DNA of 64,000 nt. It comes from a virus (taxonomy: Duplodnaviria > Caudoviricetes). The notes beneath the pieces were generated by a model that saw only the letters and a program-made list of their open reading frames with translations, was not told where the DNA came from and searched no databases. Positions 19,250 to 41,854 of this stretch are shown in pieces. The number at the start of each line of letters is the position of its first letter. Position 1 is the first letter of the stretch. The stretch covers positions 75,875 to 139,874 of the IMG/VR virus record IMGVR_UViG_3300026549_000043; one strand, 5' to 3'. The translations under genes were made by a program, and so were the position numbers.

Positions 19250-20326
19250 ATGAAATTAAAGGTTAAGAGACCAAAGAAATTGGTAGAATCAACTATTAAT
19301 GAAGCTACCCTAGAAGATACTATTAACGCTGCTGAAAAACAAATTGAAAACCCAGAAGTAGCTAGTTATAATTCTACTGGCCAGATTGAACAGGCTTTAG
19401 ATAGAGCCCTCAAGGTTGCTGAGAGAATGAAAAGAACTGGTGGTAATAACTATACTAATGTTTTACTTATTGGTGGTGCTGGTACTGGTAAAACTTCAGC
19501 AGTAAGAGACTGAGCTGCAGCTCATAATATCAACTTAGTTATGCAAAACACTTCAACAATGGATGAAACAGACCTTACAGGTGTAGTAGCTAGAAGTGCT
19601 GAAGGAAACTCAACGGTTAAATTAAGATCCGACGTTTTAAGAGGATTGAATGAACCTAGATCAGTATTATTTTTAGATGAATATAATAGAGGTAGAAGCT
19701 CAGTTAGAGGAACATTATTAACTTTAATTAATGACCATTTAATTGATACTGGTACAGACCAGGAATCAAATATTAAGGGATTATCTGGTAAATTAGAATT
19801 AAAGAATATGTTATTTACCATTGCTGCTATTAACCCGGCTTCAGGTGAATATACTACAGATGAATTAGACCCTGCCGAAATTTCTCGTTTTAGAAGAATT
19901 GAAGTTAAGGCTGATAAAAAACATCTATTAAATAATGTTTTAATTCCAAAGCTTACAAAACAGGCAGAAAATGGTACTGAAGAAGACCAGGAAATTATTG
20001 CCGGACAGATTAACCTAGCAACTAAGCTTTTATCTGATAAATCATTCCAGTTTGATAATGAAGAAGAAGAAAGACTTGGTTATCAGAAATTCGGAAGAGA
20101 TTATACTCCATTAAGTCCAAGATCATTTACTAACTTATTACAGGCTACAGATGGTACTAAGGAAGATTTCTTGTATTTATATAATGATTATTGTAACCCA
20201 ATGAAAAAGATGACAATGGAAACAATCTTATCTGATTATGAAGATATAGATGATAAAGCTAATTCTGTATTTAAAAAGAGAGAGAAATCAGCCGAAGAAA
20301 AATTAGACGATTTTCTAAATATGTAG
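19250..20326 (+). CDS. MoxR/dynein-like AAA+ ATPase (358 aa, TGA=Trp)
   Basis: Walker A GGAGTGKT lies before TGA 19511; Walker B LFLDEYNR, AAINP and LDPAEISRF follow in the same frame. Confidence 0.88.
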
Positions 20327-20344: not shown

Positions 20345-20941
20345 ATGGCAATGACCGAACGTGAGCGCCTAGGTAGAGATGTACTTATAAGATCATTAAG
20401 TAAACATGGATATGTAACTTATGGTAAATTATTAAGTAATTTCCATTTAAATTTTACTCATGACCCATCAGTTTTAGGTTATATGGAACCAAAGGCTGGA
20501 AGGATAGTTGTTAACTCAAGCCTTGATATGGATCAAGTAGAAGTAATCATTAGACATGAAATTTTACACTTTTATTTAAACCATGCAGATAGAAGTTTGA
20601 AGAAGTTGGCATCATTAAAAGGAATTGATCCAAATAATATTGATGATATGACAGTCAAAGAATTAGAAAAAGAAATCTATGGTGATGCCGAGCAAACAGC
20701 TAACTGGGCAGCAGATTTTGATATTTCTAATCAAGGGTATACTGATAAAGATAAACAAATTATTAGAACCTTACATGGTTTAGTTACTGAAGACCACCAT
20801 TCAGATTGGGTTGATTTGTCTATGGAAGAGATGTATGAAAAACTATTAAACGAAAGAAAAAATAAACAAAAGATAGTTTATGGTGCTTTCTTTAATCCAA
20901 CTACATTTATAAGTCAGGATGGTAAAATATATGGCAAATAG
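20345..20941 (+). CDS. HEXXH metallopeptidase-like domain (DUF2201 N-terminal type)
   Basis: IIRHEILH...H and NWAADFDI; adjacent to the AAA and VWA genes. Confidence 0.75.
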   Translation: MAMTERERLGRDVLIRSLSKHGYVTYGKLLSNFHLNFTHDPSVLGYMEPKAGRIVVNSSLDMDQVEVIIRHEILHFYLNHADRSLKKLASLKGIDPNNIDDMTVKELEKEIYGDAEQTANWAADFDISNQGYTDKDKQIIRTLHGLVTEDHHSDWVDLSMEEMYEKLLNERKNKQKIVYGAFFNPTTFISQDGKIYGK

Positions 20942-21587
20942 ATTAGTAGAAAAAAGAGTTCATGGAAGATTTGTAAATGGAGTATTTGTTGATCATGACG
21001 GAAATCCAATTCCATTAGAACTTTCAAATATTGGATCTCAAGGGGGTAGTAATTCTCCAAGCAATAATAATCCTGATAATAATATCCCAGTTGATTCTGA
21101 CGAAAATACTTTAGGTAATTCTAATTACCAGTCTTCTGAGGGTGAGTCTAATGATGGAGATGAATCATCTCAAGATTCAAATAATAATCCTAGTAATGGT
21201 TCTAATTCTCAAAAACCAGGCCAGTCCTCTACAAATGGTAGTCAGCCATCTGAAGAAGAATCTGATTCTAATGATTCGAATTCTTCAAGCAGTAATTCAT
21301 CTTCAGATGATTCAAGTGAGGATGAAGGTGATTCAAGTAGTAGTCAATCTGATAATAGTAAATCAGGTGATGATTCAACCAATGATTCAAGTGGATCTAG
21401 TTCTAGTCAAGAAAATTCTTCTAGCGACCAATCTGATGATGACGATGACCAATCAGATGATGGATCTAACATGATGCCAAACATGAGTGAAAAAGAATCA
21501 CCTGATCCAAATGCCATTTATGTAGATCTTAATACTAATTTCCGTTATAAATGGAATGGAGAGGAGTTTGAGAAACTTGAAGACTAA
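20931..21587 (+). CDS. Ser/Asp/Asn-rich disordered linker protein with short structured ends
   Basis: Long low-complexity core; overlaps both neighbouring genes. Confidence 0.7.
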   Translation: MANRLVEKRVHGRFVNGVFVDHDGNPIPLELSNIGSQGGSNSPSNNNPDNNIPVDSDENTLGNSNYQSSEGESNDGDESSQDSNNNPSNGSNSQKPGQSSTNGSQPSEEESDSNDSNSSSSNSSSDDSSEDEGDSSSSQSDNSKSGDDSTNDSSGSSSSQENSSSDQSDDDDDQSDDGSNMMPNMSEKESPDPNAIYVDLNTNFRYKWNGEEFEKLED

Positions 21588-22470
21588 TTTGTTAGAAGAA
21601 TTAAACGTATACATCGATGATGATACAGGCGATGAATACGTCTATGATGGTAATAGGTTAATAAAAATAAAAGTTGGTTCACCTAAGGGTATTGGTGACA
21701 AAGGTGATGAAGATATCCAAGCTCAGGAAGAAATAGAAAGAGCTAAGGAAGCAGCTGAAGGCGGAGTACTAGAAACTAAGGATGAATTAGAAGCTAGAGT
21801 TAAAAAATTAGAAGACGCTTTAAATGATGAAGAAGTTGCTAAAGAAATTACCAATGAGACAAATGAACATGTTGCTAGAGAAAAGATCAAAAAAGAACTA
21901 GACCGTTCAGAAAGAGAATTAAAACAATTTAGAAATGATCCAATTGTTCAATTTGAAGGATCATTAAATCATTTTATTAGGAAACAAATAAAATTAGCTT
22001 CTGAACAAACCTACTCTAGATTAAATAAAAGATATGAAGGAACTGGGTTAATCAGGAAGGGCGTAAAGAAATTTGAAAGCCCTGAAATACCTTTAGTAAA
22101 TGTTTATTTTGATAGATCTGGTTCTTGGGATGAAGATAAAACTAAAGTAGGTAGACAGGCTTTAGCTACTTTAGAAAAATATATCAGAACTGGAAAATTA
22201 AAGGTAGCCATAAAATATTTTAATGATAAGGTATTTGATACTTATATCCCAAACGGAATGGGAGGTACTTATGGCTCACCAATTCTGGCTGACATTTTAG
22301 CTACTAAACCAGATAACGTTATTGTTATGACTGACTCAGACATCAGTGATTGTCAGGAATTTGTTCAAGTACCAGGTGTTGTTTGGTATTTATTTAAAGG
22401 TGGAGTTTCTGAAAATTTAAGAAGCCATTTAACTGGTAAAGTAGCAACAGAATCTTATAATTTAGATTAA
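21577..22470 (+). CDS. VWA-like domain protein
   Basis: MIDAS motif DRSGS, GGT, VIVMTD; RBS gaggag favours the TTG start at 21577 (MKTNLLEE). Confidence 0.8.
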   Translation: MKTNLLEELNVYIDDDTGDEYVYDGNRLIKIKVGSPKGIGDKGDEDIQAQEEIERAKEAAEGGVLETKDELEARVKKLEDALNDEEVAKEITNETNEHVAREKIKKELDRSERELKQFRNDPIVQFEGSLNHFIRKQIKLASEQTYSRLNKRYEGTGLIRKGVKKFESPEIPLVNVYFDRSGSWDEDKTKVGRQALATLEKYIRTGKLKVAIKYFNDKVFDTYIPNGMGGTYGSPILADILATKPDNVIVMTDSDISDCQEFVQVPGVVWYLFKGGVSENLRSHLTGKVATESYNLD

Positions 22471-22481
22471 GAGGTAATTAG

Positions 22482-23009
22482 ATGGAATTAGATAAAAATT
22501 ATGTAAAAACTGAAATACTAACAATTCCAGGTTTAAGAGAAAAAATTAGAGAAAATAAATATGACGAAGTATTTGATCTATGTAAAAGTACAGCTAAAAA
22601 AAGACAGCTAGCTGCCTCATTATACTTCGCCAAGGTTGATTTTCTAAAGTATATGACTAGAATACCAGATAGTTTGTTTAGAGAAATGGAAAATATGACT
22701 AGTATCACTATTCCAGGTAATATAAAAGAGATCGGTGATTTAGCCTTTTTTGGAACAGGACTTGAAGAAGTTAAATTTGAAGAAGGTCTCGAAAAAATTG
22801 GTAAGGGAGCCTTTTCTCAGACAAAAATTAAAGAGGTACATTTACCAAAATCTGTTAAAGAACTAGGCCAAAGTGCTCTAGGTAAGGCTGTAGTATATTG
22901 TTTTTTAACTTCAGATAAAGTTATGGGACCTGAATTTAATTTTGGCCAGTTTACAGCAAATGATGTAATAAACCAGGAAACTGGGGAATTAGTTAAGGAA
23001 CGTCGCTAA
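22482..23009 (+). CDS. BspA-type leucine-rich repeat protein
   Basis: ITIPGNIKEIGDLAF, FEEGLEKIGKGAF and LPKSVKELG repeats. Confidence 0.8.
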   Translation: MELDKNYVKTEILTIPGLREKIRENKYDEVFDLCKSTAKKRQLAASLYFAKVDFLKYMTRIPDSLFREMENMTSITIPGNIKEIGDLAFFGTGLEEVKFEEGLEKIGKGAFSQTKIKEVHLPKSVKELGQSALGKAVVYCFLTSDKVMGPEFNFGQFTANDVINQETGELVKERR

Positions 23010-41007: not shown

Positions 41008-41854
41008 ATGGCATTATCACATAGTACAGTAACAGATCTTTTTACTGATATTGCGTCAACCATAAGAAGTAAAACTGGAAGTAATTCACCTATAGTTGCA
41101 GATGCTTTTCCTACTGCTATTAATGCTATAGATGTTATGACTGATATTGATAGAGCAAATTTAGGCATTTTTAAAGGACAATATGATTGTATAAATTTAT
41201 CTAATACTATGTCTGTTCCATCTACTGGATGGACTTGTTCAGTAACACAGGAGTGGTGTGATTCATTCTCTACTATTGCATCAGCTACATTCTTAAATCG
41301 TCAGTTTAAAAATGGCTCTTGGACATTTACAAATGTTTCTGAAATTAATACTTTAGGCTTTCGTAATATTGGTTATAATGTGGGCGGCTATGGAGTAGTT
41401 GATTTTAATTTTCCTTCTTGTATAACTATTGGAGTTGATGCCTTTTCAAGTAGTAGTATATTTACAATTAAGTCTTCCTAATTGTCAAACTATTAGTAAT
41501 TATGCATTTGCAAGTTGTACTGCATTAACTACAGTAAGTTTTCCAGTCTGTACTGGCATTGGTAGTTCTGCCTTTCAATATTGTTCTAAATTAACTTCAG
41601 CCAATTTTCCGGTTTGTACATATATTGGTAGTTTTGCATTTAGAAATTGTTACAACCTACTTTCTTTATATTTAATGGGAAGTAGTCTATGTTCATTAGC
41701 TGGAACAAATGCATTTAACTCAACCCCAATAAGCAACTACACTACTTCAACTGGGGGAGTATATGGAAGTATTTATGTACCTGCTTCTCTTTATTCTTCT
41801 TATATAACTTCAACAAATTGGGTAGCTTATTCATCCAGGTTTGTAGGAGTATAA
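41008..41854 (+). pseudogene. LRR fibre-tip gene interrupted by a frameshift near 41460-41472
   Basis: The LRR pattern FPSCITIGVDAF continues as LSLPNCQTISNYAF in another frame; the C-terminus matches 44369 and 45357. Confidence 0.7.

What the first reader, a model, noticed from the sequence alone, without database searches (positions are those of the whole stretch)
20345..22470. Peptidase-linker-VWA protein cut into three genes with matching peptide pairs at each junction
Established: MoxR-associated DUF2201-type proteins are usually one chain of HEXXH domain, low-complexity linker and VWA domain. Seen: here they are three overlapping genes, and each break is flanked by two similar ~20-aa motifs. 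Junction 1: gene 1 ends KIVYGAFFNPTTFISQDGKIY and gene 2 begins KRVHGRFVNG-VFVDHDGNPI. Junction 2: gene 2 ends AIYVDLNTNFRYKWNGEEFEKL and gene 3 begins NVYIDDDTGDEYVYDGNRLIKI. The two pairs are unrelated to each other. Inference: two orthogonal pseudo-symmetric docking modules rebuild the chain non-covalently, with the disordered linker as a separate subunit. I do not recognise this arrangement as described.
Basis: partly seen in the sequence, partly recalled or inferred. Interest (0 to 1): 0.8.

Follow-up and report, generated by a model that had tools for sequence, protein, structure and literature searches.

The report
Phage cochaperone split with docking tags
A phage helper protein that is normally one chain (zinc protease, floppy linker, metal-binding adaptor) is encoded here as three separate genes. 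Each cut is flanked by a pair of small look-alike beta-strand tags that occur only in split versions of the protein, so they most likely hold the pieces together.

Summary
The window is part of a 139,874-bp phage genome with 31% G+C that reads TGA as Trp. It encodes a MoxR-type ATPase followed by three overlapping cistrons: g1, a HExxH peptidase (20345-20941); g2, an acidic low-complexity linker (20931-21587); and g3, a coiled coil plus VWA/MIDAS domain (21577-22470).

The peptides facing each other at each junction are similar beyond chance. The two pairs are not similar to each other.

The split is real and old. About 40 related metagenomic phage loci keep it, including phages that use three different genetic codes. 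Gaps and frame relations vary between loci, and almost every piece has its own Shine-Dalgarno site and start codon.

The decisive comparison is with unsplit relatives. The two tag types, A and B, are absent from 67 non-redundant single-chain orthologues. They sit at the extreme termini of 75 of 111 peptidase-only pieces and 39 of 56 VWA-only pieces. A tag at a C-terminus is always followed by a gene that starts with a tag. The tags evolve under purifying selection as strong as that on the catalytic domains.

Non-covalent docking is therefore the best reading, but binding was not shown. One AlphaFold read-through model is suggestive, and the other structure tests gave no answer. "Orthogonal" is only partly right, because two-piece relatives place an A tag opposite a B tag.

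The parts
19250..20326 (+). MoxR-type AAA+ ATPase (358 aa with TGA=Trp at 19511-19513), the motor partner of the split protein
   Evidence: Pfam AAA_5 E 9.4e-6 on the C-terminal part; phrog_1297 ATPase E 4e-19; in-frame TGA. The same gene lies directly upstream in related loci.
20345..20941 (+). g1: zincin-like peptidase piece (198 aa), HEILH plus His five residues on
   Evidence: Weak Pfam DUF2201_N E 0.0027 and DUF6782 E 4e-4. Residues 1-173 are 54% identical to residues 1-178 of single-chain P0054. H71, E72, H75 and H80 are invariant in 38 relatives.
20870..20938 (+). Tag A1: last 23 residues of g1, predicted beta-strand motif
   Evidence: A-profile score 34.0. The same motif ends 75 of 111 peptidase-only homologues; in 59 of those 75 it ends within 2 residues of the C-terminus. 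It is absent from 67 fused homologues.
20931..21587 (+). g2: linker subunit (218 aa). Tag A2 at the N-terminus, about 160 aa of acidic Ser/Asn/Asp-rich low complexity, tag B1 at the C-terminus
   Evidence: No Pfam or PHROG family. Start ATG 20931 has AGGA 12 nt upstream. g2-like proteins of 93-306 aa with both tags occur in relatives. Linker dN/dS 0.28-0.59.
20952..21020 (+). Tag A2: residues 8-30 of g2
   Evidence: A-profile score 35.9. MAFFT aligns it without gaps onto A1 of g1 homologues. hhalign A1 versus A2 E 1.6e-4.
21510..21584 (+). Tag B1: last 25 residues of g2. Its codons also carry the Shine-Dalgarno site GGAGAGGAG for g3
   Evidence: B-profile score 41.6; sequence. In the AlphaFold read-through model of orthologue L009, the B1 region has pLDDT about 90 with three strands.
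21577..22470 (+). g3: short leader, tag B2, IGDKG box, charged helical region, then VWA domain with a DRSGS MIDAS motif
   Evidence: Residues 39-296 are 38% identical to residues 225-520 of P0054. Weak Pfam DUF2201 E 0.029; phrog_1314 E 1e-10. The model of orthologue L009 matches VWA domains at Z up to 10.6, rmsd 3.0 over 127 residues. The Foldseek rows are I-domains and MIDAS domains. D, S, S of the MIDAS motif are invariant in 40 relatives.
21601..21675 (+). Tag B2: residues 9-33 of g3
   Evidence: B-profile score 35.0. The B motif starts within the first 17 residues of 39 of 56 VWA-only homologues. hhalign B1 versus B2 E 8.9e-6.
22482..23009 (+). BspA-type LRR_5 protein, a conserved neighbour and possibly a further component or client
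   Evidence: Pfam LRR_5 E 1.5e-17. Present next to the module in L001, L002, L003, L005, L007 and L056.

Best explanation
The locus encodes a phage MoxR ATPase and its peptidase-VWA cochaperone, with the cochaperone made as three polypeptides from translationally coupled cistrons. g1 carries the zinc peptidase, g2 is the acidic disordered tether, and g3 carries the helical region and the MIDAS-bearing VWA domain that couples to the ATPase.

Each piece ends or begins with a tag of about 22 residues predicted to form a three-stranded beta meander. I infer that A1 at the end of g1 pairs with its look-alike A2 at the start of g2, and that B1 at the end of g2 pairs with B2 at the start of g3. This would rebuild the order peptidase-tether-VWA without a covalent link.

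Shown here: the split, its age, the separate translation signals, the restriction of the tags to split forms and to chain termini, their obligatory occurrence in adjacent pairs, and purifying selection on them.

Inferred: that the tags bind each other, the 1:1 stoichiometry, and the role of the whole machine. The literature proposes virion-assembly chaperoning with proteolysis, or anti-defence.
For: 1. The split is conserved. Relatives at 49-71% identity show the same three genes and motifs. In a survey of 111 loci, 49 are split and 29 are fused. A TAG=Gln phage keeps the same three pieces.
2. The pieces are separate cistrons. Of 44 downstream pieces, 43 have a start codon with a Shine-Dalgarno-like site. 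Gaps range from -43 to +63 nt and all three frame relations occur.
3. The tags occur only where the chain is cut. The A motif is in 75 of 111 peptidase-only pieces, 0 of 67 fused forms and 0 of 56 VWA-only pieces. The B motif is in 39 of 56 VWA-only pieces, 0 of 67 fused forms and 0 of 111 peptidase-only pieces. Both sit at the extreme termini.
4. The tags come in adjacent pairs. Among non-redundant ORFs ending in a tag, the next gene begins with a tag in 44 cases (A then A 20, B then B 18, A then B 6). The 6 exceptions are fragmentary ORFs in TAG-recoded or partial loci.
5. Selection is strong. dN/dS over the 94 tag codons is 0.08-0.09, against 0.06-0.08 for the peptidase and 0.28-0.59 for the g2 linker.
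6. AlphaFold2 was run on a natural in-frame read-through of the B1|B2 junction of orthologue L009. It gives two three-stranded meanders. B1 has pLDDT about 90 although only 2 alignment rows cover it; B2 has pLDDT 85-87.
7. A B-like unit is a tandem repeat in large repeat proteins, including EPTP-repeat proteins. This suggests, but does not show, that the unit packs against copies of itself.
8. The catalytic HExxH and the MIDAS DxSxS motifs stay invariant in split forms, so the pieces are functional.
Against: There is no direct evidence of binding. Coordinates and predicted aligned error of the AlphaFold model were not available, so contact between B1 and B2 is inferred from confidence alone. 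The read-through mini-model of an A1|A2 junction was of low confidence (mean pLDDT 60, pTM 0.29).

Look-alike pairing is not universal. A faces B in two-piece relatives, A2 faces a different beta-rich domain in L039, and several helical junctions show no significant similarity. Specificity rules therefore remain unknown.

Part of the conservation at the 3' end of A1 and B1 could reflect the embedded ribosome-binding site of the next gene.
Confidence: 0.68

Rival explanations
1. The tags are real folded modules, but they do not bind each other. Each binds a third party, such as the MoxR hexamer, the LRR protein or a client, or several tags from many chains assemble into a larger ring-like beta structure.
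For: B-like and A-like units occur as many-fold tandem repeats in large proteins. A tags can face B tags or a different domain. MoxR ATPases are known from the literature to work as hexamers, so multivalent assembly is conceivable.
Against: The tags are absent from all 67 fused orthologues, which work with the same ATPase and neighbours. They occur only at cut ends and always on both sides of a cut. That pattern is what re-joining predicts and is not expected for binding to a third party.
Confidence: 0.15
2. The look-alike peptides are neutral scars of the mutational route that split the gene (local tandem duplication, then a stop and a start between the copies), and the pieces associate, or act independently, without them.
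For: MAFFT aligns the g2 N-termini, starting at the initiator Met, without gaps onto the end of the last peptidase helix plus A1 of g1. The start Met falls on the nearly invariant Met163. One fused lineage (L108/L109) carries both halves of the helical junction type in one chain.
Against: dN/dS on the tags is as low as on the catalytic domains, while the linker drifts. The motifs persist down to about 30-45% overall identity. No DNA-level repeat remains. A|B junctions are not duplicates of each other. A duplication origin is compatible with a docking function.
Confidence: 0.06
3. The three ORFs are joined during translation, by programmed +1 frameshifting or stop read-through, into one polypeptide.
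For: Both junctions in the window are +1 frame changes with short overlaps. Some relatives have in-frame junctions separated by one stop codon (L016, L009, L023).
Against: Frame relations of 0, +1 and +2 and gaps from -43 to +63 nt occur among relatives. There is no conserved slippery site. Of 44 downstream pieces, 43 have their own Shine-Dalgarno-like site and start codon. The stops are TAA or TAG, also in phages that recode only TGA.
Confidence: 0.03
4. The paired tags are a very small split-intein-like element that splices the pieces covalently and removes itself.
For: The tags sit where split-intein halves would sit. Removing A1 plus A2, or B1 plus B2, would leave a chain resembling the fused orthologues. 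An earlier, unchecked note reports a split intein elsewhere in this genome.
Against: Each pair totals about 45 residues, whereas a HINT fold needs about 130 or more (established knowledge). The alignments show no conserved Cys/Ser at the first tag residue, no His-Asn at the end of the second tag, and no invariant nucleophile after it. Pfam finds no intein family.
Confidence: 0.02

Closest known systems
MoxR AAA+ ATPase with vWA cochaperone fused to an N-terminal metallopeptidase, described in group 2.2 jumbo phages (Iyer et al. 2021, PMC7824862); Pfam DUF2201_N + DUF2201; phrog_1314
   Same: The gene pair, the domain order (HExxH peptidase, linker, VWA with MIDAS) and the adjacency to the ATPase. 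phrog_1314 covers g1 (profile positions 29-150) and g3 (161-377). Single-chain orthologues are 38-54% identical.
   Different: Here and in many related uncultured phages the cochaperone is cut into three genes (two in some relatives), and terminal tags are added that the single-chain forms lack. The paper describes only the fused form.
Phage MoxR ATPase bas54_0063 of coliphage Bas54, needed to overcome defence system DS-28 (HIDEN-SEQ, PMC13716836)
   Same: A phage-encoded MoxR-type ATPase. This gives one experimentally supported role for such modules.
   Different: Homology to the window's ATPase was not tested. The best GenBank phage matches to the window's ATPase are only 26-34% identical, in Vibrio and Ralstonia jumbo phages. 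Nothing is known about a split partner there.
Docking domains of split polyketide synthases and non-ribosomal peptide synthetases (from my own knowledge, not tested here)
   Same: Short terminal peptides on consecutive polypeptides that restore the order of a multi-part enzyme non-covalently, with pair specificity.
   Different: Unrelated sequences and protein family. Here the facing tags look like each other and the context is a phage chaperone adaptor.
Split inteins and 'genes in pieces' of phages
   Same: A gene is broken into adjacent cistrons whose products must act together, and the added elements sit exactly at the break.
   Different: The tags are far too small for an intein and lack its catalytic residues. 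No homing endonuclease gene lies between the pieces.
Beta-hairpin repeat units of EPTP-repeat and other repeat proteins
   Same: A B-like unit recurs as a tandem repeat in EPTP-repeat proteins (P0218, P0229) and in other large repeat proteins (P0214, P0226, P0219).
   Different: Pfam reports no repeat family on the tags themselves. The only rows are OCRE at E 0.015 and 4-fold beta flower at E 0.1, both below threshold. The tags are single units at chain ends, not arrays.

Membership tests
MoxR-associated metallopeptidase-vWA cochaperone (DUF2201_N + DUF2201; phrog_1314) | N-terminal zincin-like domain with HExxH | tested here: met
   HEILH with a further invariant His and Arg. Pfam DUF2201_N scores only 17.8 bits, below the 23.2 cut-off. 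Homologues at 40-54% identity carry PF13203.
MoxR-associated metallopeptidase-vWA cochaperone (DUF2201_N + DUF2201; phrog_1314) | C-terminal VWA fold with MIDAS motif DxSxS | tested here: met
   DRSGS is present, and D, S, S are invariant in 40 relatives. The model of orthologue L009 aligns to VWA domains at Z up to 10.6. Pfam DUF2201 is only E 0.029.
MoxR-associated metallopeptidase-vWA cochaperone (DUF2201_N + DUF2201; phrog_1314) | Encoded next to a MoxR-type AAA+ ATPase | tested here: met
   The ATPase gene at 19250-20326 ends 18 nt before g1. The order is the same in related loci.
MoxR-associated metallopeptidase-vWA cochaperone (DUF2201_N + DUF2201; phrog_1314) | Peptidase and VWA on one polypeptide | tested here: not met
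   There are three cistrons with real stops in three frames, conserved in about 40 loci. This is a split variant of the family.
Split intein | HINT fold of about 130 residues or more, split into N and C parts, with Cys/Ser at position 1 and His-Asn plus Cys/Ser/Thr at the C-terminal junction | tested here: not met
   Each tag pair totals about 45 residues. The alignments show no conserved nucleophiles or His-Asn. Pfam finds no intein family.
Programmed ribosomal frameshift or read-through gene | Conserved frame relation and recoding signal at the junction, with no independent initiation | tested here: not met
   Frame relations of 0, +1 and +2 and variable gaps occur. A Shine-Dalgarno-like site plus start codon is present in 43 of 44 downstream pieces.
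Known beta-hairpin repeat families (CW_binding_1, EPTP, beta flower) | Significant match of the tag to the family profile | tested here: inconclusive
   Pfam at E up to 10 on the four tags gave nothing. The junction constructs gave only OCRE at 0.015 and Bflower at 0.1. phmmer does link the B unit to repeats in EPTP-repeat proteins.
Non-covalent docking-tag pair (functional class) | The two tags bind each other specifically | not testable with these tools
   Only indirect support is available: comparative pattern, selection, and the confident read-through model of the B1|B2 junction, for which contacts were not available.

The most novel reading that the evidence does not exclude
The A and B units are a natural family of minimal (about 22-residue) self-complementing beta-meander tags that phages add when a gene is cut. 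Rather than pairing simply 1:1, tags from several chains might close into a ring-like or propeller-like beta assembly that matches the hexameric MoxR motor. If so, the split would set the stoichiometry of peptidase, tether and adaptor on the ATPase.
Probability: 0.1. Interest if true: 0.8.

Novelty: new variant of a known kind. Interest (0 to 1): 0.6.

Why it matters
Natural gene fission is usually thought to need pieces that already stick together. In this family, unsplit, two-piece and three-piece versions all coexist, and the split versions, and only they, carry small terminal tags under strong selection. That makes the family a clean natural system for asking how proteins survive being cut.

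It may also yield very short heterodimerising tags, possibly mutually selective ones, for protein engineering.

The finding also separates the disordered tether of a MoxR cochaperone into its own gene, whose length varies from 93 to 306 residues. This makes the role of that tether directly testable. The biological role of the phage MoxR/peptidase-VWA machine itself remains open; virion assembly and anti-defence have both been proposed.

Tried and rejected
- Complex prediction of g1 with the first 50 residues of g2, using own alignments. No answer: ipSAE 0.00 in two runs, the partner's fold was uncertain, and no controls were run. This is not evidence either way.
- AlphaFold2 mini-construct of an A1|A2 junction (natural in-frame read-through of L042, 97 aa). 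Mean pLDDT 60, pTM 0.29, so it is uninformative.
- Coordinates of the models were not available in the script box, so contacts could not be measured.
- GenBank phage searches with g1 and g3 found no match.
- A region-limited homologue search with the g2 N-terminus found no candidates.
- Pfam on the isolated tags found nothing above noise. My recalled resemblance to choline-binding repeats was therefore not supported.
- I considered that one tag of each A pair has a long loop and the other a short loop. This was rejected because L046 and L055 carry two long-loop tags.
- Sequence searches of the PDB with repeat proteins that carry B-like units gave only weak rows: designed propellers and a WW domain, E 0.009 to 0.5.
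- VIA-align on the full L009 model tested only the VWA part. The fold of the tag region remains unsearched.
- Literature searches for DUF2201 with MoxR, and for gene fission with docking in phages, found no description of this arrangement.
Full report
**What is there.** The window is the right-hand 64 kb of a single 139,874-bp contig with 31% G+C. Nearly all genes lie on the + strand. They pack tightly only if TGA is read as Trp. For example, the MoxR-type ATPase gene at 19250-20326 has an in-frame TGA at 19511-19513, in the middle of its AAA+ domain.

Three ORFs follow directly:
- g1, 20345-20941, 198 aa, with HEILH.
- g2, ATG 20931 to 21587, 218 aa. About 160 residues in its middle are Ser/Asn/Asp/Glu-rich low complexity.
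- g3, TTG 21577 to 22470, 297 aa.

Their stops are TAG and TAA, so the TGA=Trp code does not change them. With these starts each junction overlaps by 11 nt, and each start has a Shine-Dalgarno-like site upstream. For g3 this is GGAGAGGAG, which lies inside the last codons of g2.

No terminator-like site on the + strand, and no excess of promoter-like sites, lies between 18400 and 25400. The ATPase, the three pieces and the following LRR_5 gene are therefore probably one transcription unit (inference).

**Family assignment.** Pfam sees g1 and g3 only weakly: DUF2201_N at E 0.0027 and DUF2201 at E 0.029, both below the curated cut-offs. The homologue searches are unambiguous, however.
- g3 has 97 relatives. 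Among them are single chains of 470-520 aa that carry PF13203 and are 40-47% identical.
- g1 has 111 relatives of 108-347 aa.
- Against the single-chain P0054, g1 residues 1-173 align to residues 1-178 (54% identity) and g3 residues 39-296 align to residues 225-520 (38% identity). Only a 46-aa low-complexity linker lies between these regions in P0054.
- phrog_1314, a 394-position profile, covers g1 and g3 in order.
- An AlphaFold2 model of an orthologous g3 matches VWA domains at Z up to 10.6 (Foldseek rows).
- The MIDAS motif DxSxS and the HExxH residues are invariant across split relatives.

This is the MoxR/vWA pair with a metallopeptidase-fused cochaperone that Iyer et al. described for group 2.2 jumbo phages (PMC7824862). 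Here the cochaperone is cut in three.

**The motif pairs.** The peptides facing each other at each junction are more alike than chance. The local alignment scores are 34 and 37, reached by 2 and 5 of 5000 shuffles. The four cross comparisons are not significant.

I call the motifs A1 (end of g1), A2 (start of g2), B1 (end of g2) and B2 (start of g3). Profiles built from relatives give A1 versus A2 E 1.6e-4, B1 versus B2 E 8.9e-6, and A versus B 0.07-0.8. There is no DNA-level repeat between the motif codons. The four sites are the only matches to the A and B profiles in the whole phage genome.

**The split is real and old.** Two IMG/VR relatives, with g3 71% and g1 49% identical to the window's, have the same three genes and the same motifs. 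I then collected 111 loci from viral and metagenome contigs and classified them with peptidase and VWA profiles. The result was 49 split loci, 29 fused loci and 31 loci where the contig ends after the peptidase piece.

Across non-redundant split loci:
- gaps range from -43 to +63 nt;
- the frame change is 0, +1 or +2;
- 43 of 44 downstream pieces have a start codon with a Shine-Dalgarno-like site.

This excludes sequencing error and a conserved frameshift. One group of loci looked shattered under my TGA=Trp reading. Read with TAG=Gln, it resolves into the same three pieces with the same tags. The arrangement therefore spans phages that use different genetic codes.

**Tags mark cuts.** This is the main result.
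- The A profile hits 75 of 111 peptidase-only pieces. In 59 of those it ends within 2 residues of the C-terminus.
- The B profile hits 39 of 56 VWA-only pieces, always starting within the first 17 residues.
- Neither profile hits any of 67 non-redundant fused orthologues; all scores there are negative.
- Neither profile hits the wrong kind of piece.
- In the loci, A and B matches occur only in this gene family.
- Every non-redundant ORF that ends in a tag and has readable downstream sequence is followed by a gene that starts with a tag: A then A 20 times, B then B 18 times, A then B 6 times, and never B then A. The 6 apparent exceptions are ORF fragments in TAG-recoded or partial loci.

**Selection.** Between the window and relatives 96% and 87% identical in g1, dN/dS over the 94 tag codons is 0.09 and 0.08. 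For the peptidase domain it is 0.08 and 0.06. For the g2 linker it is 0.28 and 0.59. The tags are therefore functional protein sequence and the linker is not sequence-constrained. The linker subunit also varies from 93 to 306 residues among relatives.

**Structure tests.**
- Some relatives have consecutive pieces in the same frame, separated by a single TAA. I could therefore fold natural read-through products without altering any other residue.
- For the B1|B2 junction of L009 (the g2 tail, then TAA read as Gln, then g3), AlphaFold2 gives three strands for B1 at pLDDT about 90, although only 2 alignment rows cover that part. A helix spanning the break follows. B2 then forms three strands at pLDDT 85-87. 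This fits two meanders packed together, but coordinates and predicted aligned error were not available, so contact is not demonstrated.
- For an A1|A2 junction (L042) the 97-aa model was poor, with mean pLDDT 60 and pTM 0.29.
- The complex predictor gave no answer.

- The tags are not a strictly orthogonal pair of pairs. In two-piece relatives the peptidase piece runs through the low-complexity stretch and ends in an A-type tag, while the VWA piece starts with a B-type tag (L005, L023, L024, L062, L069, L099). A local match between the second halves of A and B in L024 (22 of 3000 shuffles) hints that the two types are distantly related.
- In L039 the gene upstream of A2 ends in a different beta-rich domain.
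- Other relatives are cut at helical peptides. These are look-alikes in some loci (L007, 2 of 3000 shuffles; L074, 61 of 3000) and not in others.
- One fused lineage (L108/L109) carries both helical junction peptides within one chain. This shows that such a pseudo-repeat module can exist before a cut.

**Evolution.**
- On a tree of the peptidase domain, all beta-type splits fall in one well-supported clade (SH-aLRT 99). That clade holds 25 three-piece, 7 A|B two-piece, 1 helical two-piece and 7 fused forms. The other clade is mostly fused.
- The tree needs 13 state changes, so splitting or re-fusion happened repeatedly.
- Fused forms nested among split ones, such as L079/L081, have no tags. 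Whichever direction the change went, tags and cuts go together.
- MAFFT aligns the g2 N-termini, from the initiator Met onward, without gaps onto the last helix plus A1 of g1. This suggests A2 arose as a duplicate of the g1 tail. Such an origin is compatible with a docking function.

**Relatives of the tags.** phmmer with the 93-aa g2 of L003 against 1.84 billion representative proteins found 19 proteins at E up to 0.001. Some are g2-like adaptors of 97-278 aa with both tags. Others are large proteins in which a B-like unit recurs many times, including EPTP-repeat proteins. Pfam itself assigns no family to the tags, and PDB sequence searches gave only weak rows.

**Function of the whole machine.** This was not tested here. 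Iyer et al. propose virion-assembly chaperoning with proteolytic processing. A transposon screen found that a phage MoxR ATPase is needed against one defence system (PMC13716836). The window's ATPase is only 26-34% identical to the nearest GenBank phage genes.

**Verdict.** The docking interpretation is the best-supported reading on comparative and evolutionary grounds (confidence about 0.7), but binding is unproven and strict orthogonality is doubtful. I found no description of this arrangement in the searched literature.

Noticed in passing
window 19511-19513 and the whole window: The phage reads TGA as Trp. The MoxR gene and many other + strand genes are whole only under table 4, and the 139,874-bp genome has 31% G+C.
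   Followed up: partly
L056 3900-6400 (same as L014); also L015, L022, L058: Related phages appear to read TAG as Gln. Under that code L056 has the same three-piece split with the same tags, so the arrangement spans phages with different genetic codes.
   Followed up: partly
window 41008-41481 and 41429-41854: Two overlapping ORFs in different frames both carry repeats that look like BspA-type leucine-rich repeats. This is the highest-scoring adjacent-gene junction in the window (score 39), because repeat units face each other. It may be a repeat protein broken by a frameshift.
   Followed up: no
L108 and L109 (fused forms of 718-720 aa, TGA=Trp): These single-chain orthologues contain, about 30 residues apart, both helical peptides that in other relatives (L074, P0184, P0206) sit on either side of a two-piece cut. 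This looks like an uncut precursor-like state of the helical junction type.
   Followed up: partly
P0214, P0226, P0219, P0228, P0223, P0218, P0229: Large proteins from metagenomes carry a B-like unit as a many-fold tandem repeat. Two of them are EPTP-repeat proteins, and one of those also has a Peptidase_S74 (chaperone of endosialidase) domain.
   Followed up: partly
L044 4590-5252: A g2-like linker protein with two A-type units (residues 43-67 and 154-175) plus a terminal B unit.
   Followed up: no
L039 1195-2280; P0126, P0138: These peptidase pieces end in a different beta-rich domain of about 60 aa instead of tag A1. In L039 the next gene still starts with tag A2.
   Followed up: no
window 21558-21566 and the equivalent sites in relatives: The ribosome-binding site of the downstream piece is often written inside the conserved Gly/Glu or Asp/Gly codons of the upstream tag. 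Part of the DNA conservation there could serve translation initiation.
   Followed up: partly
phrog_1314: The PHROG family that covers both the peptidase and the VWA part is labelled 'HNH endonuclease'. That does not fit the domains found here and is probably a mislabel.
   Followed up: no
window 22482-23009 and neighbours in L001, L002, L003, L005, L007, L056: A small BspA-type LRR_5 protein is almost always encoded next to the module. It lies after g3 in most loci and before the peptidase in L005. It may be a further component or a client.
   Followed up: no
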